Source of the DNA: Chlamydiota bacterium
GTDB lineage: Bacteria > Auribacterota > JACPWU01
Assembly: GCA_016196885.1 (NCBI GenBank)
Contig: JACPWU010000028.1
Location: 1 to 32,000 of the forward strand
Direction: 5' to 3'
DNA length: 32,000 nt
Each line of letters opens with the position of its first letter. Within the stretch, counting starts at the first letter, position 1. The notes beneath the pieces were generated by a model. It did not search any database, was not told where the DNA came from, and worked only from the letters and a program-made list of their open reading frames with translations. Both the position numbers and the translations under genes were made by a program. Shown here one piece after another: positions 5,927 to 22,122 of this stretch.

Positions 5927-6328
5927 TTACCTCGTAAAATACCGATCGCTGGGAGCACCTCGTACTTCACCCTTAATTTCTGTGGGCTGAGAATTTTGAC
6001 TGATGTCTTTCATGGCTTTCACGGATTCTTCATGCCATTTTTGAAAATCGTTTAATTCCTTTTCAAACTTTTCCTGAGTCTCCTGCAATTTTTGCAAACC
6101 CTCTTCATATTTTTTTGAAACATCTTCCAATTGATGCATCACATCCTCTTCATGCCTTCTCATTTCATCAATCTGTTGAATCAGCCCTCTATAGTCCAAA
6201 ACCACATCATCGGGATGGCGCATCATTTCAGGAGGCCTTCTCTCTCTCTGGTTATTTTCAGAATCCTGAGCCATGCCAAAACCTATCCCCAGAACAAGAC
6301 ACATCAAGCACGATAAAAATTTCTTCAT
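5927..6328 (-). CDS. Small secreted coiled-coil protein, hypothetical
   Basis: The N-terminus [22 protein letters not shown] looks like a signal peptide. The rest is charged and heptad-like (EEDVMHQLEDVSKKYEEGLQKLQETQEKFEKEL). Its ATG (6328-6326) overlaps the uvrA-fusion stop TGA (6327-6325) as ATGA. Confidence 0.6.
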   Translation of the reverse strand: MKKFLSCLMCLVLGIGFGMAQDSENNQRERRPPEMMRHPDDVVLDYRGLIQQIDEMRRHEEDVMHQLEDVSKKYEEGLQKLQETQEKFEKELNDFQKWHEESVKAMKDISQNSQPTEIKGEVRGAPSDRYFTR

Positions 6329-9300
6329 AAATTCTTTTCCTTAATTTTGATTTTTGATTTTTGATTTATTTTTACTAAATACCTCCCCGTATACGATTCC
6401 TTTGCACCCATCACCTCCAGGGGAGAACCCTGGGCTACAATTCTTCCGCCGCCGGCTCCCCCTTCAGGCCCTAAATCCAAAATATAATCCGACTGACGAA
6501 TCAAATCCAAATTATGCTCGATCACAAGGACCGTGTTCCCCAAATCAACCAATTTTTGCAGAATCTTCATCAATTTTTCAATGTCGGCAAAATGGAGTCC
6601 TGTGGTCGGTTCGTCCAAAATATAAAGTGTCTTACCTCGATTTCTCTTGATCAACTCATAGGCCAATTTAATCCGCTGAGCCTCTCCCCCTGAGAGCGTC
6701 GGACTGGGCTGACCCAATTCTAAATAGCCCAGGCCTAGTTCATTCAAAAGCTTCAAAGGGTCATGGATCTTAGGAATATTTTCAAAAAAGGAAACGGCCT
6801 CTTCAAGGGTCATCCCTAAAACTTCTGCGATGGTCTTTCCTTTGAAAGAAACTTCTAATGTCTCTGGATTAAAACGGGCCCCATGACAATCATCGCAAAC
6901 CACATACACCTCGGGTAAAAAACTCATTTCGATTTTGATACGGCCCTGTCCCCCACATTTTTCGCAGCGCCCGCCCACCAAATTAAAACTGAATCGGGCG
7001 GGAGAGTAACCCCTCACCTTGGCCTCCGGCATCATGGCATAAAGCTCTCGCAGGTAGGGATAAAACCCGACATAAGTCGCCGGAATAGACCGCGGCGTTT
7101 TTCCAATAGGGGTTTGATCTACTTCAATCACCCGTTCTATTTTCTCATGGCCTAGAATTTTATCATGCGCCCCGACCCACACGGGAGATTCATCCTTCAT
7201 CCGCCGCAAGCCCTGATAAAGCACATCTCTCACCAACGTGCTTTTTCCGGATCCAGAAACTCCCGTCACACATACGAGACGCCCCAAGGGAATTTTTGCG
7301 TGAACATTTTTCAAATTATGAGCCCTCGCCCCCTTCACTTCTAAGAAAGAGGCGTCCCGCCACGGTCGAGGCTTTATTCCATTCATTTGATAAAGATTTT
7401 TTAAATAGTGGCCGGTCACAGATTTTTCTTCTGCCATAATTTGGTGAGGCGTTCCCTGGGCGATCACCCAGCCGCCTCTTCGACCTGCCCCTGGACCTAA
7501 ATCAATCACATGGTCAGAAGCCAAAATCGTTTCTTCATCATGCTCTACCACAAGCACACTGTTCCCGCGATCCCTTAATTTCTTCAATGTCTCTAGCAGT
7601 TTTTCATGATCCCGTACATGAAGTCCAATGGTCGGCTCATCCAAAATATAGCATACGCCCTGCAAGGCGGATCCCAGCTGAGCAGCCAGACGCACCCGTT
7701 GAGATTCACCTCCTGACAAACTCTGCACGGGCCGATCTAAAGTCAAATAGCCTAGACCCACCTCGTTCAAAAATTCCAGACGATGACTCCATTCTTTTAA
7801 AATGTTCTTCGCAATAAGAAGTTCCCGCTCGTCCAGTTTTAAACGCCTCACATATTGAAGCGTTTGTTGGACAGACATCGCGGTGATATCGGTAATTGAT
7901 TTCCCATGAAAAAATACCGCCCGTGCATCGGGCTTGAGCCTCGTCCCTTGACAAGCTGTACAAGTTTTTTGCCTGGCCTCATCTTCCTCCAACCAAACAT
8001 CTCCTTCTTCTTGAACCTCTTCTTTTGTGATAAATCCCAACCCGTGACATTTAGGGCAGGCCCCATGACGACTGTTAAAGGAGAAAAGGCGCGGGTCTAA
8101 CTCTTTAAAACTGATTTCGCAGCGCGGACAATAACGCTTGAGGCTGTAAAGCTCGTCTTCCCTTCCAGGAACGTTTAAGAAAAAGGAAGATTTTCCAAAC
8201 TGCAAGGCCTCTTCCACCCTTTTCTTCAATTCAAAAGCACTTTTCTCTCCTATCTTTATTTCTGCCAAAAGCGCATCAAGGGTGTGCTCTGAAAAACGCT
8301 CTAATTTAGGGATGGGCAGCACCGAACGAATGCGACCATCCACCCGGGCTTTTGAGATTCCATTTTTCTCCAATTTTTGAAAAATATCTTTGTGATAGCC
8401 CTTCTTCGCTCGAACGAGAGGCGCAAGAAATCGTACGACCTCCCCTTCATGAGACTCTGAAATCCGATCATAAATCTGACGGACTGTCTGAGAACCGATT
8501 TTCTGACCACACTGATGACAATGTTGAATGCCAATTTTGGAATACAGCAGTCTTAAAAAATGATAAATCTCAGTCACCGTGGCCACGGTAGACCGTGCAC
8601 CGCCTTGAGTCAGCCGTTGCTCGATTGCAACCGTCGGCGGAATTCCCTCAATCCAATCAATGTCGGGTCTGGATACCTGCGTCATAAACTGCCGGGCATA
8701 ACTGGACAGACTCTCAATGTAGCGACGCTGCCCTTCCGCAAAAATCACATCATACGCCAAAGTCGATTTACCCGATCCTGAAAGCCCTGTAATCACCACA
8801 AGCTTGTCTCGTGGAATTTCTACGTTGATGCTCTTCAGGTTGTGCTCGCGAGCACCGACGACGCGGATGCATCGTGAATGGGAGATGGGATTTATGGTGA
8901 GGGGTGAGGGGTGAGGGGTGAGTTCTAAGTTTTGGGTTTCGAGTTTTAAATTTTCGATTTTTGAGATGTCATTTTGATTTTCGATTTTTGATTTTTGATT
9001 TGTACCTACTCTTTTCTCTCCTAACACCTCTTTTAAAAACCTGCCCGTATGCGAGGCTTCGCATCGAGCCAACTCTTCAGGCGTTCCAACCCCCACTACT
9101 TGTCCTCCCGCTTCTCCTCCCTCCGGTCCCAAATCAATGCAATGATCTGCACATTTAATCACATCCAGATTGTGTTCAATCACCACCACAGAATTCCCGT
9201 CTTCGATCAAACGCTCAAAGGCCAACAATAATTTTTGAATGTCTTCAGGATGAAGACCCGTGGTCGGTTCATCAAACAAAAAAAGACAATTCTCTCTCCT

Positions 9301-11904
9301 GAGAATTCCCATAAAATAAGCCAATTTTAACCGTTGGGATTCCCCTCCCGAAAGCGTATTCAAAGGCTGACCCAACCTCAGATACCCCAAGCCGATCTCA
9401 TCCAAGACGTTCAAGGGGCGAGAGATTTTCAAATGCTCACGAAAAAATTCCCGCGCCTCATTCACGGTCAAATTCAGAATCTCAGAGACATTCTTTTCCT
9501 GATAACGTACCTCCAACACCTCTTTGCGATAGCGATGGCCCAAACACTCCGGACATTTCACATACACGTCTGAAAGAAATTGCATTTCAATCTTTTCGAA
9601 GCCCTCACCCTCACAGCGGTCGCACCTGCCTCCTTCTACATTGAAAGAAAATGTACTAGGTCCGTAACGACGAACCTTGGCCAAGGAAGTTCGGGCCAAT
9701 AAACCGCGAATGGGGTCAAACACCTTCAAATACGTTGCAGGATTCGATCGAGGAGTTCGGCCAATCGGATCCTGATCCACCAAAATGACATCGCCGATCT
9801 CGTCCTGACCGACAATCCCCTGACAGCGGCCAGGCTGTGCTACAAGATCTCTCCTGATCTTGCGAAGCCCCCGGTAGAGAACCTCTTCAATCAACGTACT
9901 CTTCCCAGATCCGGAAACGCCGGTAATGCAAACCAAAACATCCAAGGGAATCTTGACAGTGATTCCCTTTAAATTATTTTGTGAAGCCTTTTCAATTTGA
10001 ATGGAGCGCTGAAGGAAGGGTCTACGCCGCCTTTGAGGAATCGGAATCTCTAAGGTCCCACTTAAGTATTTTCCGGTGAGAGATGAAGGGTGCTTCATCA
10101 GATCCGAGACGGACCCTTGAAAAACAATTTGTCCTCCCCACTCCCCTGCCCCAGGGCCTAAGTCAATCACGTGATCACAATGACGAATGATGTCCGAATC
10201 ATGCTCTACCAACACCAGCGTGTTTTGATTTCTTTTAAGGCGGTGCAAAATTTGAACCAGCCGCGCATTGTCTCTCGCGTGAAGACCCATGCTGGGTTCG
10301 TCCAAAATAAAAAGGGTGTTCACCAAATTGGTGCCAATGGCCGTCGTCAAATTCACCCGCTCCACTTCTCCTCCCGAGAGCGTTTTCGAAGGACGATCCA
10401 GTGTCAAATAACCTACGCCCACATCTTTTAGATATTTCAATCTCGACTGAATTTCCTGAAGAAGCATTTTTGCAATCTTCTCCTGGGACCCTTTGAAATT
10501 GATTTGCTCAAAAAAAGTGAGTGATTCCTCCACATTCATGGCATAAATTTCGGCAATGGTTTTCCCACCCAATTTAACGCACAACACCTCCCTCTTAAAT
10601 CGCGTCCCCCTGCAATCCTGACAAATCACAAAACTGCGATACCTCGCCAGCAAGACGCGAATATGCATTTTATAGGATTTTGAATTCAGCCAATCAAAAA
10701 ATCCGCGAATCCCATACCATTGGGGCCAATCCCCCTCGCCACGTATCACCCATTCTTGAGCCCAAAGAGGTAAATCCTGAAAAGGAACATCGGTGCTCAC
10801 TCCCTTCTTTCGAGCATGCTCCATCATTTCATCTTGACACTCATGATAGGCCTCGGTCTGCCAAGGCTTCACCGCCCCTTCTTTCAAGGTCTTGCGTCGA
10901 TCTGGAATAATCATGTCCAAATCCATATCAATGTTTCTTCCAAATCCACGACAGGTCGCACAGGCCCCCAAGGGATGATTAAACGAAAAAAGATTTGGAG
11001 TTAAATCTTGATAATAAAGGTCGCAGTCGGGGCAATGATAATGAAGGCTGAATTTTAAACAGTTGGAGGTTTGTTCTTCCAACTTCCAACCTTCAACCTC
11101 TAACCGTTTTATTAAATGAATCGTCAACTTCCCCTTCCCAAACCGATATGCCTGTTCCAAAGAATCCAAACAGCGTGCTCGATTTTCGGAACTTATTTCC
11201 ATATGATCCACAAAAACCTCTAGCGTCTTGCCCCTTTCCTTCTCCAGCAAAGCCTCATCAATGGGCCGGACCTCATTTTCTAAAATGGCCTTTCGAAAAC
11301 CCATGCGCGAAAAACCTTCTAATAATTCTGAAGCCTGTAATTTGGAAGAAAGAAGTAACGGGAAACTCACCGAAAGCATTCCTGTTTTCATCTCTACAAG
11401 AGAACTGAAAACCGCCTCAGGTGTTTCCACACGAACCTCGCGACCACATTTCTGGCAAAAAAGAGTCCCCAATTTCGCAAAAACCAGTTTCACAAAATCC
11501 GTGATTTCTGTCATGGTCCCCACGGTAGAACGGGAACCCCTCACGCGGTCCGTCTGATCAATGGCAATCGCCGGCAAAATTCCTTCGATTTCGTCCACCT
11601 CTGGCTTATCCATGCGGTCCAAAAACTGGCGGGCATACGCCGAAAAACTCTCGACATAGCGGCGCTGACCCTCCGCATAAAGCGTGTCAAAGGCAAGACT
11701 GGACTTCCCAGAGCCGCTCACCCCTGTCACCACCGTCACCTCGCCCATGGGCAGGCGTACATCCACATTCTTTAAATTGTGCTGACGCACCCCCTTGAGA
11801 GAAATAAATCTAGAGCGCTCTTTCGAAGGAATGTCAGAAAAAGCCTTAACATCCACTGGTTTATTTTGAACGGGTTCTTCTAATTTCAACGACATCTCTT
11901 TCAC
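6325..11904 (-). CDS. uvrA: Tandem-fused double UvrA (two complete UvrA-like units in one 1859-aa polypeptide)
   Basis: Four ABC nucleotide-binding domains are present, with Walker A motifs [27 protein letters not shown] and GVSGSGKST and repeated LSGGE signatures. Each half begins with the UvrA signature ..G.R.HNLKN..V..P.....[28 protein letters not shown]. CxxC zinc modules are present in both halves. The GTG start at 11904 lies 5 nt after AGAGGA. Confidence 0.95.
6341..6372. repeat. Heptad-word tract (TTTTGAT x3) encoding the C-terminal tail of the UvrA fusion
   Basis: The sequence ttaattttgatttttgatttttgatttattttt encodes ...[15 protein letters not shown] on the minus strand. Confidence 0.7.
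8897..9001. repeat. 15 consecutive heptads forming the in-frame linker between the two UvrA units
   Basis: The sequence is gtgaggg x3, gtgagtt, ctaagtt, ttgggtt, tcgagtt, ttaaatt, ttcgatt, tttgaga, tgtcatt, ttgattt, tcgattt, ttgattt, ttgattt. On the minus strand it is translated as [35 protein letters not shown]. Confidence 0.85.
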
Positions 11905-12953: not shown

Positions 12954-13193
12954 ATGCAACTGCCCGCTGGCCTTTTTAAGGCGAAATGTCTTCGGCTCAT
13001 GGATGAGGTTCAAAAATTCCATCACGAAATCACCATCACAAAATTTGGGAAACCCGTGGCTAAATTGATTCCCTTTGAAGAGAAAAAATCTCCCCTCTCC
13101 CTTTTCGGCCTTCTGAAAGGAGAAATGCTCATCAAAGATGATTTGATCAAACCGATTGACGAAAGATGGGAAGCAGATGTTAAACCCGGATAA
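12954..13193 (+). CDS. Phd/YefM-family antitoxin
   Basis: MQLPAGLFKAKCLRLMDEVQKFHHEITITKFGKPVAKLIPFE matches the ..l...v....e.v.It..GkPvA.l.p pattern of Phd/YefM. It overlaps the downstream PIN gene. Confidence 0.75.
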   Translation: MQLPAGLFKAKCLRLMDEVQKFHHEITITKFGKPVAKLIPFEEKKSPLSLFGLLKGEMLIKDDLIKPIDERWEADVKPG

Positions 13194-13599
13194 GGAACTC
13201 CTGCTCTTAGATACCCACGTTTGGATTTGGCTGATGAATGGTGAGAAAAGACTCAAATCCTCCAAAGACCTTCCCAAAATCGAAAAGGCCGCCCGACATT
13301 CACAGCTTGTTATCTCTGCCATTTCCTTTTGGGAAATTGGAATGTTGGAAGCCAAGGGAAGAATTCAATTTTCACTGAGCTGTCCGGAGTGGCTTCACCA
13401 AGCTCTGTCTGTCCCTGGTATAATCCCCATCGGTCTCACGCCAGAGATCGCAGTGGAAAGCAGCCGGCTCCCTGGGTATTTTCACGCAGACCCAGCCGAT
13501 CGCATCATCGTAGCAACAGCCCGGCAATGCGGTGCCACCCTTGTCACAGCAGACAAAAATATTCTGAACTATAAAAACGTGGATACACTACGTGTTTAA
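13177..13599 (+). CDS. vapC: PIN-domain toxin VapC
   Basis: From ATG 13177: MLNPDKELLLLDTHVWIWL (Asp), ISAISFWEIGML (Glu), ADPADRIIVATA (Asp). The track start at 13156 is an upstream TTG. The gene overlaps the antitoxin by 17 nt. Confidence 0.85.
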   Translation: MLNPDKELLLLDTHVWIWLMNGEKRLKSSKDLPKIEKAARHSQLVISAISFWEIGMLEAKGRIQFSLSCPEWLHQALSVPGIIPIGLTPEIAVESSRLPGYFHADPADRIIVATARQCGATLVTADKNILNYKNVDTLRV

Positions 13600-13603
13600 A
13601 ACC

Positions 13604-14806
13604 TCACTTTTCTCTCAACCTCGAAAGATAAAATCGGTAGGATTTTTCGAGATCTGTGAATTTTAAAACTTTTTCTTTTAAGGCGTCTGGAAGCTGATCG
13701 GATTGGACAGCTTCGGAAAGGGCATTGAGATTGAGATCCGAAAATTTTTCCCATTCGCCAGCCTCCCTTACCAGCCTTTCCAAGGCCCCGCGGCGAGGGT
13801 CATCCTTCAGAGGAAATTTATATACCTCTTTCCCCTTGATTTTTAATTTATAGTCGCTGCCATGCACCACCTCCACCCCCTCTTTCTCGGCATAGGCGAT
13901 CAAGGCTTCTTTGATTTTTTCCAGTTCCTCGTCCATTTGTTTCACCAAATCATTTTTCTTGGTTGATATCTCTGCGTAACGATTGACCAAGGTGACGCCC
14001 GTTTCATTCAAATATTCATGAACCGGCAGCACCTCCACTTTCCGAAGATGTTTCATCAGGGGACAAATATCCACAAACTCACACCAGGGGCAAATCGCAC
14101 TTTCACGCGGCGGAAAATCCTTTGCAGATTCAACTTCGCGAATCACTTGAATGGTTTGCTCTCTCACTTGCGCCAAATCGGAAGGCGAGCGTTCTGAAAC
14201 AAGCTGTCGATCAAAGGCAAGATAATGCCAGACGAGGCGAACCCCTTTCACATCCGGCCATTGCTGCTGGATACCGATTTGATAAAGGGCCAACTGACGA
14301 TCCTGATCCACCTTCTCCTGTGTCGGTAAAGTCTGACCTGTTTTATAATCATGAATTTCAAGAACGCCATCTTCACCCTGGGCCAGCCGATCAATAAAAC
14401 CCATCAGGCGGTATTCCCCGCGTTCATCCAAATTGATAAAAATTTGCTGTTCCAGGCCCAAGGTTCTTGTCTGATCAAAGGGATAGAATTTTCGATAATA
14501 ATCGCGAATACATTTTTCTCCCAACTTCCGATAATTTTCAGCCGTATAATCTTTTTTAATCATCTCCACATTTTCTGACCAATTCTTGCGCCAGTCATCA
14601 TTGTAAAAGGTGAGAAGATCGCCCAGGCTGTTCATCTTGGTCACCTTTAAATCGCGGTAAAGCTTCTCAAGCGTTTCGTGAACGCGTTTGCCCAAAAAGG
14701 CCTCTATCGTCTCTCGGTCTTTCTTAATCCGATCCACGTAGCGGTATTTATATTGAAGGGGACAGGTCTCATAAGTCCCCAAGCGAGAATGAGAATAGAC
14801 TGGCAT
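13604..14806 (-). CDS. PD-(D/E)XK nuclease family protein (RecB/Cas4-like, with Cys cluster)
   Basis: N-terminus YSHSRLGTYETCPLQYKYRYV. Core GFIDRL...LEIHDYKTG (D...ExK-type). QLALYQ motif. C-terminal cluster CPWCEFVDICP, so together with the N-terminal Cys this is a Cas4/AddB-like four-Cys arrangement. A further 130 aa of unknown function follow. ATG 14806 is preferred over the track's TTG at 14815. Confidence 0.85.
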   Translation of the reverse strand: MPVYSHSRLGTYETCPLQYKYRYVDRIKKDRETIEAFLGKRVHETLEKLYRDLKVTKMNSLGDLLTFYNDDWRKNWSENVEMIKKDYTAENYRKLGEKCIRDYYRKFYPFDQTRTLGLEQQIFINLDERGEYRLMGFIDRLAQGEDGVLEIHDYKTGQTLPTQEKVDQDRQLALYQIGIQQQWPDVKGVRLVWHYLAFDRQLVSERSPSDLAQVREQTIQVIREVESAKDFPPRESAICPWCEFVDICPLMKHLRKVEVLPVHEYLNETGVTLVNRYAEISTKKNDLVKQMDEELEKIKEALIAYAEKEGVEVVHGSDYKLKIKGKEVYKFPLKDDPRRGALERLVREAGEWEKFSDLNLNALSEAVQSDQLPDALKEKVLKFTDLEKSYRFYLSRLREK

Positions 14807-14831
14807 TGTTCTCAAATCCTTTTTTAAACCT

Positions 14832-15506
14832 TTATTTTTTTAGATTCCTTTCTTCCAAGTGATGCTTGATGGTCTTTCCCTGAACCAAATAGATCACGTC
14901 CTCGCCAATGTTGGTGGCATGATCAGCAATCCGCTCCAAATGGCGGCCGATCAAAATCAGGTCCACCGCCCTTTCAATCGCCGAAGAGTCTTGAAGCATG
15001 TAAGTCAGAAGCTCTCTAAAAATCTGATCATTCAAATCATCCACTTCATCATCTCGCTCACACACACTGCGAGCCAATTTTGCATCTTGATTCACAAATG
15101 CATCAAGGCTGTCTTTTACCATTTTTTGAGCAAGATTCGCCATGCGTGGAATGTCAATCAAAGGTTTGAGAAGAGGTTTTTTCAAGAGGTCTAGCGTTCT
15201 CTCAGCAATATTAACGGCCAAATCCCCCATGCGTTCTAAATCATTCACAATTTTCATCACCATGATAATCAGCCGCAAATCCGACCCCGCCGGCTGATGA
15301 AGCGCCAAAAGTCTGAAACACATTTCCTCAATTTCAATCTCGAGCATGTTGATCACATCATCAGATCTAACCACACCTTCCGTCATAACCTCGTCTCGAT
15401 TCACCAGAGCCTTGACAGATAGGCTGATCGCATCCTCCACCAGCCCTCCCATTCTCAAAAGTTCTTGCTTTAATTTTCCCAGCTCCTCATCAAAATGTCG
15501 TTGCAT
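14832..15506 (-). CDS. phoU: Phosphate signalling complex protein PhoU
   Basis: MQRHFDEELGKLKQELLRMGGLVE... and two repeats each carrying the E/DxxxD metal motif (ERMGDLAVNIAE, ERIADHATNIGE). RBS AGGAG is upstream. Confidence 0.95.
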   Translation of the reverse strand: MQRHFDEELGKLKQELLRMGGLVEDAISLSVKALVNRDEVMTEGVVRSDDVINMLEIEIEEMCFRLLALHQPAGSDLRLIIMVMKIVNDLERMGDLAVNIAERTLDLLKKPLLKPLIDIPRMANLAQKMVKDSLDAFVNQDAKLARSVCERDDEVDDLNDQIFRELLTYMLQDSSAIERAVDLILIGRHLERIADHATNIGEDVIYLVQGKTIKHHLEERNLKK

Positions 15507-20127: not shown

Positions 20128-20793
20128 ATGTCAAATATGCTAGCATCATTACGGATGAAACAATCAAAAGAAATTGAATTTAAATGGCAATGCGAGTCCC
20201 TTCAGGATTTTCAAAAATTCATAAAAGCGGCTCACACATGGGGTCATGATTTCAGCCAAACCAAAAAAGTTTCGATCCATGATTATTACCTAGACACATC
20301 CCAACGATTCTTCGGCGAACGTCACGTCTCTTGCCGTCTTCGTAAACAAGACAAACGCTGGGAATTGACCTTGAAATCTAAATCAAAACTCAAGAGAGGA
20401 CTGGCTGAAAGACTTGAAAAAACATGGCGTCTTGGGCACCTCCTCATTTTTTCTCAGGCGCTCAACCATTGTCAAAACCACATCCTTAAAGAAACGCTAA
20501 ATTCTCAAAAACTTCAGGTGATTTTTGAAATCAGAAACAAGCGCCGCATGAAACAATTATGGATCACGCCTCACACCCAGGCCGCAATCTCTTTCGACAG
20601 CGTGAGCATCTCCAGAAAATCACGCTCCTTTCCCATGCTTGAGATTGAACTGGAATTCATTCGAGGGAATTCAGCTAGCTTTCTCTCTTTCATTCAAAAA
20701 ATTTCTCGCCTCACAAAACTCAAAGCGGCCAAAACCTCTAAAGTTGAGAGGGCACTCAAAACATTTGGACTCAGGACGCGAAAGGGACCGTGA
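20128..20793 (+). CDS. CYTH-domain protein (triphosphate tunnel metalloenzyme family)
   Basis: N-terminal ExExK motif (KEIEFKW), followed by CRLRKQ, LTLKSK, AERLE, IRNKRR, SFDSV, LEIELEF and a C-terminal TSKVERAL. This is the ordered charged-residue series of CYTH tunnels. Confidence 0.8.
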   Translation: MSNMLASLRMKQSKEIEFKWQCESLQDFQKFIKAAHTWGHDFSQTKKVSIHDYYLDTSQRFFGERHVSCRLRKQDKRWELTLKSKSKLKRGLAERLEKTWRLGHLLIFSQALNHCQNHILKETLNSQKLQVIFEIRNKRRMKQLWITPHTQAAISFDSVSISRKSRSFPMLEIELEFIRGNSASFLSFIQKISRLTKLKAAKTSKVERALKTFGLRTRKGP

Positions 20794-21982
20794 AACCAAA
20801 GGTGGATCCCCTCCCCCATTGAGATTGAACCCACACCTCACCCTTGTGGGCCTGAACAATGTGCTTCACAATGGAAAGCCCTAATCCTGTTCCTCCCACA
20901 TCGCCCAACTCGGGTCGGCCCAATCGAGGCGAGTTCACTTCTCGAGAGCGAGACTTATCTACGCGATAAAATCTTTCAAAAATCCTGGGCTGATCATCTG
21001 GAGGAATTCCAATCCCTGTATCCTTCACATTCACTTGGAGAAAATCTCCATCTTGAAAGGCACAAACCGTCACACGCCCTTTTTCAGGAGTGTATTTAAT
21101 GGCATTGTCCAGGAGATTCACCATCACCTGAGAAAGCCGCACCTCATCTCCCAACACTTGAGGAATATCTTGAGCTAAATCTGAATTCACAGAAAGAGTT
21201 TTTGCCCTCGCCGCTTGTTCCAAAATCGAAATTGCCTTTTGAATCACTCTCCTCATATCCACAGGGAGAAAAACCATTTTGACTTTTCCAGATTCCATTC
21301 GAGCCAAATCCAAAAGATCATCGACCAACTGGGACAAGCGATTGCTGTCACAGCTCACAATCTGTAGAAATTGACGAAGATCCGTCGGATTTTCCATGGC
21401 CCCATCCAGCAGCGTTTCAACATAACCCTTGATGCTGGAAAGGGGTGTGCGAAGCTCGTGAGAAACATTCGCAACAAAATCCTGTCGAACCTTTTCCAAG
21501 CGACGTAGTTCCGTAATATCATGAAAAACTAAAATGGCCCCCTCTACCTCATCTCGAATCACAACGGGCACCGCATTCACCTTAAAAAACTTTTCTTCAG
21601 GATGAGTTAACACTACCTCTTCAGTAATCAATCTATCTGTCAAACCCAGCGTTCTTTCCACAATATTTTGAATGGAAACATTTCGAATCATCTCCAAAGG
21701 GCTTTTTCCATAAGGATCCGTGTCCATCATGAATATTTTTTTGAAAGAAGGATTCGCAAAAAGAATGCGCCCCTTTGGGTCGGTAAGAAGGACTCCCTCA
21801 AACATGCTGGACAAAACAGCATCCAACTTGGCCTGTCCCATCCCCCCGGCCTCAGCCTTTTCTTTCAGATTGGACTGCGAACTCTTTAGAGAAGACTGCA
21901 AAGCTTGAATCAATCGGCGAGAACGATAGAGACGATAAAACAGAAAAAGCAGAAAAATTGTTAGTACGATTTGGAAGACCAT
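20771..21982 (-). CDS. phoR: Phosphate regulon sensor histidine kinase PhoR
   Basis: One N-terminal TM helix, a PAS-like segment, H-box FVANVSHELRTPL, N-box LLDNAIKYT, G-boxes DTGIGI and GGTGLGLSIVKHIV. ATG 21982 (MVFQIVLTIFLL...) is preferred, since the track start at 22030 is a TTG inside the hairpin repeat. The 3' end overlaps the convergent CYTH gene by 23 nt. Confidence 0.9.
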   Translation of the reverse strand: MVFQIVLTIFLLFLFYRLYRSRRLIQALQSSLKSSQSNLKEKAEAGGMGQAKLDAVLSSMFEGVLLTDPKGRILFANPSFKKIFMMDTDPYGKSPLEMIRNVSIQNIVERTLGLTDRLITEEVVLTHPEEKFFKVNAVPVVIRDEVEGAILVFHDITELRRLEKVRQDFVANVSHELRTPLSSIKGYVETLLDGAMENPTDLRQFLQIVSCDSNRLSQLVDDLLDLARMESGKVKMVFLPVDMRRVIQKAISILEQAARAKTLSVNSDLAQDIPQVLGDEVRLSQVMVNLLDNAIKYTPEKGRVTVCAFQDGDFLQVNVKDTGIGIPPDDQPRIFERFYRVDKSRSREVNSPRLGRPELGDVGGTGLGLSIVKHIVQAHKGEVWVQSQWGRGSTFGFTVPFAS

Positions 21983-22026
21983 ATTAAAATCCAGCCGTAA
22001 AAAAATACAATGACAAATTCCCAATT

Positions 22027-22122
22027 TCAAATGTCAAATCAATGACCAATGACTCAATGTCCAATGGGTCATTGGTCCATTGGAAATTAATTTGTCATTG
22101 GGTATTGGTCATTTGAAATTGA
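22027..22122. repeat. Heptad-word hairpin (CAATG / CATTG words) in the phoB|phoR junction
   Basis: The sequence is tcaaatg tcaaatc aatgacc aatgact caatgtc caatggg tcattgg tccattgg aaattaatttg tcattgg gtattgg tcatttg aaattga. Left and right halves are roughly complementary around CCAATGggtCATTGG. Confidence 0.75.

What the first reader, a model, noticed from the sequence alone, without database searches (positions are those of the whole stretch)
6325..11904. Covalent UvrA heterodimer with complementary domain erosion in the two halves
Both halves keep the UvrA N-terminal signature, two ABC modules and zinc modules, but they differ in complementary ways.
- Half 1 (11904 to about 9030): about 110 aa lie between CATC and CQDC, so the insertion domain is retained. 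The segment equivalent to the UvrB-binding domain has diverged ([23 protein letters not shown] instead of the usual ..RKGEH...L...GF.R.R.DG pattern).
- Half 2 (about 8871 to 6325): a canonical-looking UvrB-binding segment is kept ([33 protein letters not shown]). Only about 27 aa lie between CPKC and CTAC, so the insertion domain is essentially deleted.
UvrA works as a head-to-head dimer, so the fusion would hard-wire an asymmetric dimer. Tandem-duplicated UvrA has been noted in the literature, and I recall chlamydial uvrA genes of about 1800 codons. I do not know of this complementary degeneration having been described.
Basis: partly seen in the sequence, partly recalled or inferred. Interest (0 to 1): 0.65.

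Follow-up and report, generated by a model that had tools for sequence, protein, structure and literature searches.

The report
Fused two-in-one UvrA repair protein
One gene encodes two complete copies of the DNA-damage sensor UvrA joined head to tail, and the copies have divided the normal protein's features between them, making a built-in lopsided dimer that bears on how many UvrB partners UvrA must load.

Summary
The 1859-aa ORF (6325-11904, minus strand) is real. A 100%-identical protein is deposited as UvrA of a Chlamydiae MAG, and hundreds of independent assemblies share the architecture. Each half is a complete class I UvrA protomer, with all ATPase motifs and zinc modules intact.

Half 1 has a 113-aa insertion domain (ID). 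In half 2 a 28-aa acidic loop replaces it. The reading of the UvrB-binding domain (UBD) is incomplete and probably inverted:
- **Two patches.** Canonical UBDs carry pole A (KG-loop, RxDG, His198) and pole B (VDR plus the Arg216/Glu222 helix).
- **Reciprocal split.** In 187 family members, half 1 keeps pole B in 174 and pole A in none. Half 2 keeps pole A in 186 and pole B in one.
- **Published roles.** Arg216/Glu222 is the published E. coli UvrB/Mfd-contact surface. The pole-A loop contacts the opposite subunit's zinc finger in M. tuberculosis UvrA.
- **Insertion domain.** Half 1's is never lost. Half 2's evolves faster or is deleted.

Best reading: half 1 senses damage and docks one UvrB, and half 2 acts as a latch. 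This function is inferred, not shown. I found no published description in the searchable library.

The parts
6325..11904 (-). Whole double-UvrA ORF (1859 aa including the GTG start; stop codon at 6325-6327)
9031..11814 (-). Half 1 (aa 31-958): a complete class I UvrA protomer with UBD and insertion domain
   Evidence: TIGR00630 scores 1075.6 bits against a cutoff of 729.8. AF2 model pLDDT 83.6. Foldseek TM 0.85 to 3uwx_A over 957 columns.
11023..11457 (-). Half-1 UvrB-binding domain (aa 150-294, between the two CxxC motifs of Zn module 1). Pole A is lost and pole B is kept.
   Evidence: PF17760 43.8 bits; per-position statistics; motif counts
11140..11190 (-). Half-1 alpha-2 helix [17 protein letters not shown] (aa 239-255). 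It carries R244, D247, S248 and E250, which correspond to E. coli R216, E219, S220 and E222, the UvrB/Mfd-contact surface.
   Evidence: PMC3025350
10612..10962 (-). Half-1 Zn module 2 plus insertion (DNA-binding) domain (aa 315-431)
   Evidence: PF17755 match at 328-392. pLDDT 83-92. Present in 187 of 187 family members.
9544..9624 (-). Half-1 C-terminal zinc finger and beta-hairpin (aa 761-787, [12 protein letters not shown]). Nearly invariant in the family.
8875..9030 (-). Inter-half linker (aa 959-1010): low complexity, and hypervariable in length and sequence across the family
6328..8874 (-). Half 2 (aa 1011-1859): a class I UvrA protomer lacking the insertion domain
   Evidence: TIGR00630 scores 1135.4 bits. 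AF2 model pLDDT 84.7. Foldseek TMq 0.86 to 3zqj.
8119..8520 (-). Half-2 UvrB-binding-domain homologue (aa 1129-1262). Pole A is kept and pole B is lost.
   Evidence: PF17760 80.3 bits
8284..8421 (-). Half-2 pole A (aa 1162-1207): K1168, G1169, H1171, R1187, D1189, G1190 and H1207. These correspond to E. coli K159, G160, H162, R178, D180, G181 and H198.
   Evidence: PMC3167621
8197..8247 (-). Half-2 alpha-2 helix [17 protein letters not shown] (aa 1220-1236). E1225, K1228 and R1229 sit in place of Arg216, Asp/Glu219 and Ser220. Hypervariable in the family.
7951..8058 (-). Half-2 Zn module 2, with a 28-aa acidic loop ([24 protein letters not shown]) in place of the insertion domain (aa 1283-1318)
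   Evidence: pLDDT below 50 for aa 1295-1310
6886..6966 (-). Half-2 C-terminal zinc finger (aa 1647-1673). Its hairpin is variable in the family.

Best explanation
**What it is.** The gene encodes a single-chain pseudo-dimer of the nucleotide-excision-repair damage sensor UvrA. Two complete class I protomers are joined by a flexible linker. All four ATPase sites and all six zinc modules are intact. The fusion is ancient and shared by a large family.

**How the halves differ.**
- Half 1 is the working side. It keeps the insertion domain that clamps DNA. It also keeps the UBD helix that docks UvrB or Mfd (R244, D247, S248, E250).
- Half 2 has lost both of those. It keeps, almost invariantly, the other conserved patch of the UBD, the KG-loop, RxDG and His cluster that I call pole A.

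**Proposed role of pole A.** In the closed M. tuberculosis UvrA dimer this loop touches the region beside the C-terminal zinc finger of the opposite subunit. I therefore propose that the half-2 UBD acts as a one-sided latch on the half-1 zinc-finger hairpin.

**Predicted consequence.** The molecule would present one UvrB-loading site and one insertion domain. It would be a hard-wired UvrA2-UvrB1-type sensor with fixed polarity.

**Shown versus inferred.**
- Shown: the architecture, the family, the reciprocal conservation, and the faster evolution and loss of the half-2 ID.
- Inferred: which half binds UvrB, the latch, the one-to-one stoichiometry, and that the two halves pair within one chain.
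For: **Architecture and folds:**

**Single origin.** All 187 half-1 sequences form one clade and all 187 half-2 sequences form another in a neighbour-joining tree with E. coli UvrA as outgroup.

**Reciprocal partition of the UBD.**
- Alignment-free counts: the pole-B motif R..[DE][SA].[EQ] is found in 174/187 half-1 UBDs and 1/187 half-2 UBDs. The pole-A motif [RK].KG.[HFY] is found in 0/187 and 186/187.
- Weighted column frequencies: half 1 has R216 1.00, E222 0.97 and D205 1.00. Half 2 has K159, G160 and H198 at 1.00, and 2.5-3.5 bits of entropy along its helix.
- Mean pairwise identity in the same organisms: pole A 0.36 in half 1 versus 0.84 in half 2. Pole B 0.71 versus 0.46. ID 0.655 versus 0.456.

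**Insertion domain.** The half-1 ID is present in 187/187. The half-2 ID is deleted in 82/187, and those members fall in several tree clusters.

**Published anchors.**
- R216A/E222A is the E. coli UvrB/Mfd-surface mutant (PMC3025350).
- The pole-A loop K160-D165 of MtUvrA contacts residues next to the opposite subunit's zinc finger (PMC3167621).

**Matching asymmetry at the zinc finger.** The half-1 hairpin is nearly invariant and the half-2 hairpin is variable.

**Weak support.**
- The AF2 half-2 model is closest to the closed MtUvrA structure.
- In a second double-UvrA family that carries pole A in the N-terminal half, hairpin constraint relative to the protein core shifts to the C-terminal half.

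**Fit with recent structures.** UvrB binding and ID-DNA contact are coupled on the same protomer, and a UvrA2UvrB1 intermediate exists (PMC11985968).
Against: - No structure coordinates were available, so I could not list which UBD residues contact UvrB in 3FPN, 3UWX, 9GY7 or 4DFC. Pole A might contribute to UvrB binding.
- The UvrB-surface assignment rests on one double mutant cited second-hand.
- The full chain exceeds the 1200-residue limit of the structure predictor, so intramolecular pairing was not modelled.
- Half 2 scores higher on the Pfam UBD profile than half 1 (80 versus 44 bits).
- In other double-UvrA families an ID-less half keeps pole B. ID loss is therefore not strictly tied to loss of the UvrB helix.
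- I could not check whether these genomes also carry an ordinary uvrA.
- The cross-family hairpin test is weak: absolute entropies are equal and only the core-normalised ratio differs.
Confidence: 0.55

Rival explanations
1. Half 2, which has a canonical-looking UBD and no ID, is the UvrB-loading side. Half 1, which has an ID and a degenerate UBD, is the lesion-recognition side. The two functions are split in trans.
For: - Half 2 keeps the APxVRxxKGxH and RxDG motifs and scores higher on PF17760.
- In MtUvrA, UvrB-bound UBD and ID-DNA contact on one protomer exclude each other (PMC11985968). An ID-less protomer could therefore be a constitutively open loader.
Against: - The half-2 helix that corresponds to the mutationally defined UvrB/Mfd surface is hypervariable.
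- It has Glu, Ala or Gln in place of Arg216. The pole-B motif is found in only 1/187 half-2 UBDs.
- Half 1 keeps that surface almost invariantly.
Confidence: 0.2
2. Both UBDs bind partners, but different ones. For example, half 1 binds UvrB and half 2 binds Mfd or another factor through pole A. This would give a dedicated Mfd-UvrA-UvrB hand-off complex.
For: - Both domains are under strong but different constraint.
- UvrB and Mfd use the same UvrA surface in E. coli and compete for the two UBDs of a dimer (PMC3025350; PMC7864632).
Against: - Mfd is reported to use the same mode of UvrA recognition as UvrB, which points to pole B and not pole A.
- No partner for pole A other than the opposite zinc-finger region is documented in what I could read.
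Confidence: 0.12
3. The double UvrA is an accessory paralogue that coexists with an ordinary uvrA, like class II UvrA2, Ecm16 or DrrC. It does not work in UvrB-dependent excision repair.
For: - I could not survey whole genomes for a second uvrA.
- No single UBD in this family has the full canonical residue set.
- UvrA paralogues with non-NER roles exist (PMC9328131).
Against: - Each half alone passes the curated TIGR00630 UvrA cutoff.
- Both halves keep a UBD, which class II proteins lack.
- ATPase, zinc-finger and DNA-binding residues are conserved.
- NCBI annotates the identical protein as UvrA.
Confidence: 0.1
4. The fusion is an assembly or sequencing artefact, such as a lost stop codon or frameshift between two adjacent uvrA genes, or the gene is a decaying pseudogene.
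For: The source is a metagenome-assembled genome, and the linker is low-complexity sequence.
Against: - The same fused reading frame occurs in hundreds of independent assemblies from several phyla, including complete chromosomes.
- All catalytic motifs are intact in both halves.
- Half-specific residues are conserved family-wide.
Confidence: 0.01

Closest known systems
Class I UvrA homodimer (E. coli UvrA; G. stearothermophilus 2R6F/3UWX; M. tuberculosis 3ZQJ; T. maritima 3PIH; C. thermocellum 9GXK)
   Same: - Each half has the full class I domain order: two ABC modules, three zinc modules and a UBD. Half 1 also has the ID.
- Identity to solved UvrAs is 43-47%, with TM-scores of 0.80-0.86.
- Both halves pass the TIGR00630 cutoff.
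   Different: - One 1859-aa chain instead of two identical chains of about 940 aa.
- The conserved UBD residues are split between the halves.
- Half 2 has no ID.
- The two zinc-finger hairpins are under unequal constraint.
NCBIfam NF001885 / PRK00635, the roughly 1800-aa 'excinuclease ABC subunit A' model (1809 positions), which I recall as the Chlamydiaceae double-length UvrA
   Same: - A double-length UvrA annotated as the organism's UvrA.
- The window protein comes from a Chlamydiae MAG.
   Different: - The window protein scores 1249.5 bits against a cutoff of 3054.
- Both of its halves match best to the first half of that model.
- None of the five diverse representatives I tested reaches the cutoff.
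- It is therefore at most a distant relative and not a member.
Class II UvrA (D. radiodurans UvrA2 2VF7; Ecm16 7SH1; DrrC)
   Same: A UvrA paralogue class defined by loss of an accessory domain.
   Different: - Class II proteins lack Zn module 1 and the whole UBD, and they act without UvrB (PMC9328131).
- Here both halves keep a folded UBD, and it is the ID that is missing from one half.
Transient asymmetry of the canonical UvrA dimer on damaged DNA (MtUvrA2-UvrB1 complex; 'recognition-ID' versus 'support-ID', PMC11985968)
   Same: One side recognises the lesion and one UvrB is recruited first. ID release and UBD engagement are coupled on one protomer.
   Different: In the canonical protein the asymmetry is induced by the lesion and either protomer can take either role. 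Here the sequence fixes it.
MutS homodimer versus the eukaryotic MSH2-MSH6 heterodimer (from my own knowledge, used only as an analogy)
   Same: A repair sensor that works as a functionally asymmetric dimer becomes genetically hard-wired into two non-equivalent halves, through duplication and complementary loss.
   Different: It is a different protein family. MSH2 and MSH6 are separate genes, not a single fused chain.

Membership tests
Class I UvrA (TIGR00630 / NF001503) | Two ABC ATPase modules per protomer, each with Walker A, signature, Walker B and H-loop | tested here: met
   Both halves have them. Family-wide, Walker A is present in 187/187 in each half and Walker B and the H-loop are conserved.
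Class I UvrA (TIGR00630 / NF001503) | Three four-cysteine zinc modules per protomer | tested here: met
   Six CxxC motifs in each half at the expected positions
Class I UvrA (TIGR00630 / NF001503) | UvrB-binding domain (Pfam PF17760) inserted in Zn module 1 | tested here: met
   Half 1 scores 43.8 bits and half 2 scores 80.3 bits against a cutoff of 23.3. Each keeps only half of the canonical conserved residues.
Class I UvrA (TIGR00630 / NF001503) | Insertion (DNA-binding) domain (Pfam PF17755) in Zn module 2 | tested here: inconclusive
   Met in half 1 (residues 328-392; 113-residue spacing). Not met in half 2, which has a 28-aa loop and no match.
Class I UvrA (TIGR00630 / NF001503) | Curated HMM score cutoff | tested here: met
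   TIGR00630: half 1 scores 1075.6 and half 2 scores 1135.4 against 729.8. NF001503: half 1 scores 1109.8 (just below 1147) and half 2 scores 1174.2.
Class I UvrA (TIGR00630 / NF001503) | Homodimer of two identical subunits of about 940 aa | tested here: not met
   A single 1859-aa chain with two non-identical halves. p-distance between half 1 and half 2 is about 0.57 across the family.
Class I UvrA (TIGR00630 / NF001503) | Loads UvrB on damaged DNA and supports UvrABC incision | not testable with these tools
   Needs biochemistry or complementation
NF001885 / PRK00635 double-length UvrA | Score at or above the curated equivalog cutoff (3054 bits) | tested here: not met
   1249.5 bits
NF001885 / PRK00635 double-length UvrA | Chain of about 1800 aa made of two tandem UvrA units | tested here: met
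Class II UvrA (UvrA2 / Ecm16 / DrrC) | Absence of Zn module 1 and of the UvrB-binding domain | tested here: not met
   Both halves have Zn module 1 and a PF17760 domain

The most novel reading that the evidence does not exclude
This family is a natural experiment. It would show that bacterial excision repair needs only one UvrB-docking surface and one insertion domain per UvrA dimer. The second UBD would have a separate, conserved job: latching the partner's zinc-finger hairpin. In ordinary homodimers that job is hidden, because both functions sit on the same domain twice. If true, the family gives a fixed-polarity UvrA2-UvrB1 sensor. Such a sensor could be used to test directly how the damaged strand is chosen and whether the A2B2 complex is obligatory.
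Probability: 0.35. Interest if true: 0.78.

Novelty: new variant of a known kind. Interest (0 to 1): 0.62.

Why it matters
Two questions about bacterial excision repair remain open in papers from 2025 (PMC11985968). One is whether the working damage sensor is UvrA2UvrB2 or UvrA2UvrB1. The other is how a symmetric UvrA dimer ends up loading a single UvrB on the correct strand.

A widespread natural UvrA whose two halves are covalently linked and non-equivalent separates functions that cannot be separated genetically in a homodimer. It points to two distinct conserved surfaces on the 'UvrB-binding' domain. It also suggests that one of them has a role other than UvrB binding.

It gives concrete residues to mutate:
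- R244 and E250 in half 1;
- K1168, G1169 and H1171 in half 2.

It also offers a monomeric, fixed-polarity protein suited to cryo-EM and single-molecule work.

The family is large, spanning the PVC group, Desulfobacterota, Binatia and others. It is annotated simply as 'UvrA'.

Tried and rejected
**Literature.** None found a paper describing double-length UvrA or its domain asymmetry. Key papers were not held: Pakotiprapha 2008 and 2009, and Timmins 2009. The UvrB-contact residues are therefore known to me only through Manelyte et al. 2010.

**Full-chain structure prediction.** This was impossible because of the 1200-residue limit. I modelled the halves separately instead. The models come without coordinates, so no contact geometry could be measured.

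**Rejected ideas.**
- Sequencing artefact or pseudogene: rejected because the fused frame recurs across hundreds of independent assemblies.
- Recent duplication or gene conversion between the halves: rejected because the DNA repeats between halves are only 60-77% identical and confined to ABC motifs.
- Degenerate ATPase site in one half: rejected because all four sites are intact. Some Verrucomicrobia-type members have a conservative Asp-to-Glu change in the half-2 distal Walker B.
- Membership of the NF001885 family: the score test fails.
- A single origin for the half-2 ID deletion: not supported by the neighbour-joining tree, although its deep branches are short and unreliable.
- An acidic ID-replacement loop as a universal feature: it holds for the 82 near relatives (Asp+Glu fraction 0.33 versus 0.12 protein-wide) but not for more distant double UvrAs.

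**Genomic context.** The neighbouring genes gave no repair partners; uvrB, uvrC and mfd are not in the window.
Full report
**1. What is in the sequence**

The window carries one uninterrupted ORF at 6325-11904 on the minus strand, 1859 aa long. A 100%-identical protein, 1856 aa from an ATG three codons downstream, is deposited at NCBI as 'excinuclease ABC subunit UvrA' of a Chlamydiae MAG.

The protein has four Walker A motifs, four LSGG signatures, four Walker B motifs and twelve CxxC motifs. That is two full sets of UvrA features. It scores far above threshold for UvrA in NCBIfam and Pfam. It is 43-47% identical to solved class I UvrAs.

The neighbouring genes are ordinary chromosomal genes. 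They include an ABC-2 transporter, a hydrolase, a PIN toxin, a PD-(D/E)XK nuclease, PhoU and a histidine kinase. There is no uvrB, uvrC or mfd in the window.

**2.

All the stated sequence facts are correct.
- Half 1 has 113 residues between the two CxxC motifs of Zn module 2, and a Pfam UvrA_DNA-bind match.
- Half 2 has 28 residues there and no match.
- Both quoted UBD strings are present.
- The fusion is not an artefact. All 120 best protein hits are double-length.
- A scan of one genome per species found at least 572 related loci, and the 80 fetched are fused.
- More than 100 of the 150 best-scoring 50%-identity cluster representatives are fused UvrAs.

**3. Each half is a folded UvrA protomer**

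| | Half 1 (aa 1-965) | Half 2 (aa 1000-1859) |
|---|---|---|
| TIGR00630 score (cutoff 729.8) | 1075.6 | 1135.4 |
| AlphaFold2 mean pLDDT | 83.6 | 84.7 |
| Best PDB match | 3UWX/2R6F, TM 0.84-0.85 | closed M. tuberculosis UvrA 3ZQJ, TMq 0.86 |
| UBD in the model | confident | confident |
| ID in the model | confident | replaced by a disordered loop (pLDDT below 50, aa 1295-1310) |

Sources. Both UBDs pass the Pfam threshold, at 43.8 and 80.3 bits against 23.3. Half 1's UBD is therefore diverged but not lost.

**4. The UBD asymmetry is reciprocal**

I aligned 374 halves from 187 complete family members with E. coli UvrA. I compared them with five canonical UvrAs: E. coli, G. stearothermophilus, M. 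tuberculosis, C. thermocellum and T. maritima. The residues conserved in canonical UBDs (most invariant in all five, the rest near-invariant) fall into two groups.
- **Pole A:** K159, G160, H162, R178, D180, G181, L192 and H198.
- **Pole B:** R176, D205, R206, R216, D/E219, S220 and E222.

The two halves keep opposite groups.
- Half 1 keeps pole B. Weighted frequencies are R216 1.00, E222 0.97, D205 1.00, R206 0.91 and R176 0.94. It has lost pole A.
- Half 2 keeps pole A. K159, G160 and H198 are at 1.00, H162 at 0.98 and D180 at 0.97. Arg194 and Glu197, where canonical UvrAs have Lys, are also fixed at 1.00. Its alpha-2 helix is hypervariable, at 2.5-3.5 bits.

An alignment-free motif count gives the same result.

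| Motif | Half-1 UBDs | Half-2 UBDs |
|---|---|---|
| Pole B, R..[DE][SA].[EQ] | 174/187 | 1/187 |
| Pole A, [RK].KG.[HFY] | 0/187 | 186/187 |

In the window protein, half 1 has R244, D247, S248 and E250. Half 2 has E1225, K1228 and R1229 at the corresponding positions 216, 219 and 220.

**5. What the two poles do, from the literature I could read**

- E. coli UvrA R216A/E222A is used as the UvrB interaction-surface mutant. UvrB and Mfd share that surface (PMC3025350; PMC7864632).
- In the closed apo M. tuberculosis UvrA dimer, UBD region K160-D165 of one subunit bonds to residues next to the C-terminal zinc finger of the opposite subunit (PMC3167621). By my numbering, that region is E. coli K159-K164, which is the pole A loop.

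Two observations are consistent with a one-sided version of that contact.
- The half-1 zinc-finger hairpin is nearly invariant: F 0.84, E 1.00, K 0.94, E 0.97, Q 1.00, S 1.00, D 0.99. The half-2 hairpin varies, at 2-2.9 bits at four positions.
- The AF2 half-2 model resembles the closed conformation. This is weak evidence.

**6. The insertion domain**

- The half-1 ID is present in 187/187 members.
- The half-2 ID is deleted in 82/187, leaving 15-53 residues.
- Where the half-2 ID is still present it evolves faster: pairwise identity 0.456, against 0.655 for the half-1 ID in the same organisms.
- Deleted forms fall in at least four tree clusters with lineage-specific residual lengths. This suggests recurrent loss, but the deep branches are short.
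- In these 82 proteins the residual loop is acidic: Asp+Glu 0.33 versus 0.12 protein-wide, and mean net charge -7.3. This does not hold in more distant double UvrAs.

**7. Origin and wider landscape**

All half-1 sequences form one clade and all half-2 sequences form another, with E. coli UvrA outside. A single old duplication-fusion, followed by complementary loss, fits this. The linker is 32-84 residues and hypervariable.

At 50% clustering other fused families appear:
- a fully canonical N-half joined to a C-half that lacks pole A but keeps pole B, with or without an ID;
- reversed order, with the ID-less half first;
- double class II proteins of about 1600 aa with no UBDs;
- class I plus class II fusions.

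Almost always, only one half keeps pole A. In the family with pole A in the N-half, hairpin constraint relative to the protein core shifts to the C-half. That is the direction the latch idea predicts, but the effect is small.

**8. Mechanism proposed**

Half 1 would sense damage through its ID and dock one UvrB or Mfd through pole B. The half-2 UBD would no longer dock UvrB and would latch the half-1 zinc-finger hairpin through pole A.

This matches the coupling of ID release and UvrB binding on one protomer, and the UvrA2UvrB1 intermediate seen by cryo-EM (PMC11985968). The functional assignments are inferences, and I put them at about 0.55.

Its main support is the higher Pfam score of half 2 and the steric argument that an ID-less protomer is always open.

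**9. Comparison with known families**

- The protein works like, and each half qualifies as, a class I UvrA. As a whole it is not the canonical homodimer.
- It is not a member of the curated double-length family NF001885. It scores 1249.5 against 3054, and both halves match that model's first half best.
- It is not class II, since both halves have a UBD.

I found no published description of the asymmetry in the searchable library. That library lacks most subscription papers, so prior description elsewhere cannot be excluded.

**10. Verdict**

This is a real, conserved, widespread variant of UvrA. The map of what was kept where needs correcting, and the UvrB-binding assignment is probably inverted. 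Interest is moderate to high for repair specialists, because the protein offers a natural separation-of-function tool.

Noticed in passing
window 5927-6328 (-): A 133-aa ORF starts with an ATG that overlaps the uvrA stop codon (an ATGA overlap at 6325-6328), which suggests translational coupling. It has a hydrophobic N-terminus, a charged and probably helical body, and no Pfam match.
   Followed up: partly
window 6344-6382 and 8971-9009: The C-terminal tail of half 2 ([15 protein letters not shown]) and the start of the inter-half linker ([10 protein letters not shown]...) share a 39-nt low-complexity stretch at 79% identity. It could be a remnant of the duplication or simple slippage.
   Followed up: no
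window 8896-8923: A tandem GGTGAGGGGTGAGG / GGTGAGGGGTGAGT repeat lies inside the linker and encodes the PHPSP stretch.
   Followed up: no
window 13156-13599 (+) and 13604-14815 (-): A PIN-domain protein, probably a VapC-type toxin, lies next to a PD-(D/E)XK nuclease superfamily protein. PhoU follows at 14832-15506, then what looks like a phosphate-transport cluster, then a PAS histidine kinase at 20771-22030.
   Followed up: partly
Proteins P0121 and P0125: Two double-UvrA cluster representatives are 2334 and 2343 aa long, about 450 aa longer than the rest. Both IDs are present, and the extra sequence is unexplained.
   Followed up: no
Proteins P0196, P0207, P0232, P0235 and similar; P0182, P0228, P0241: Other fused architectures exist. 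There are double class II-like UvrAs of about 1600 aa with no UBD in either half. There are also fusions of a class I-like half (whose UBD keeps pole A but not pole B) with a class II-like half.
   Followed up: partly
Loci L010-L081, half-2 distal ATPase site: In 42 of 187 family members, mostly Verrucomicrobia-type, the half-2 distal Walker B reads L[LI]EEPTI instead of xLDEPTT, an Asp-to-Glu change.
   Followed up: no
Window protein aa 751 versus aa 1637 (E. coli R730): One of the four Arg residues of the E. coli DNA-binding patch, R730, is invariant Arg in half 2. In half 1 it is Thr or variable across the family. This is a further half-specific difference on the signature-II domain.
   Followed up: partly
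Window protein aa 1-30 and aa 268-279: Two segments are predicted disordered (pLDDT below 50). One is an N-terminal extension before the first UvrA strand. The other is a 12-aa insertion in the half-1 UBD ([12 protein letters not shown]). In the UBD alignments I inspected, the insertion is absent from the relatives.
   Followed up: no
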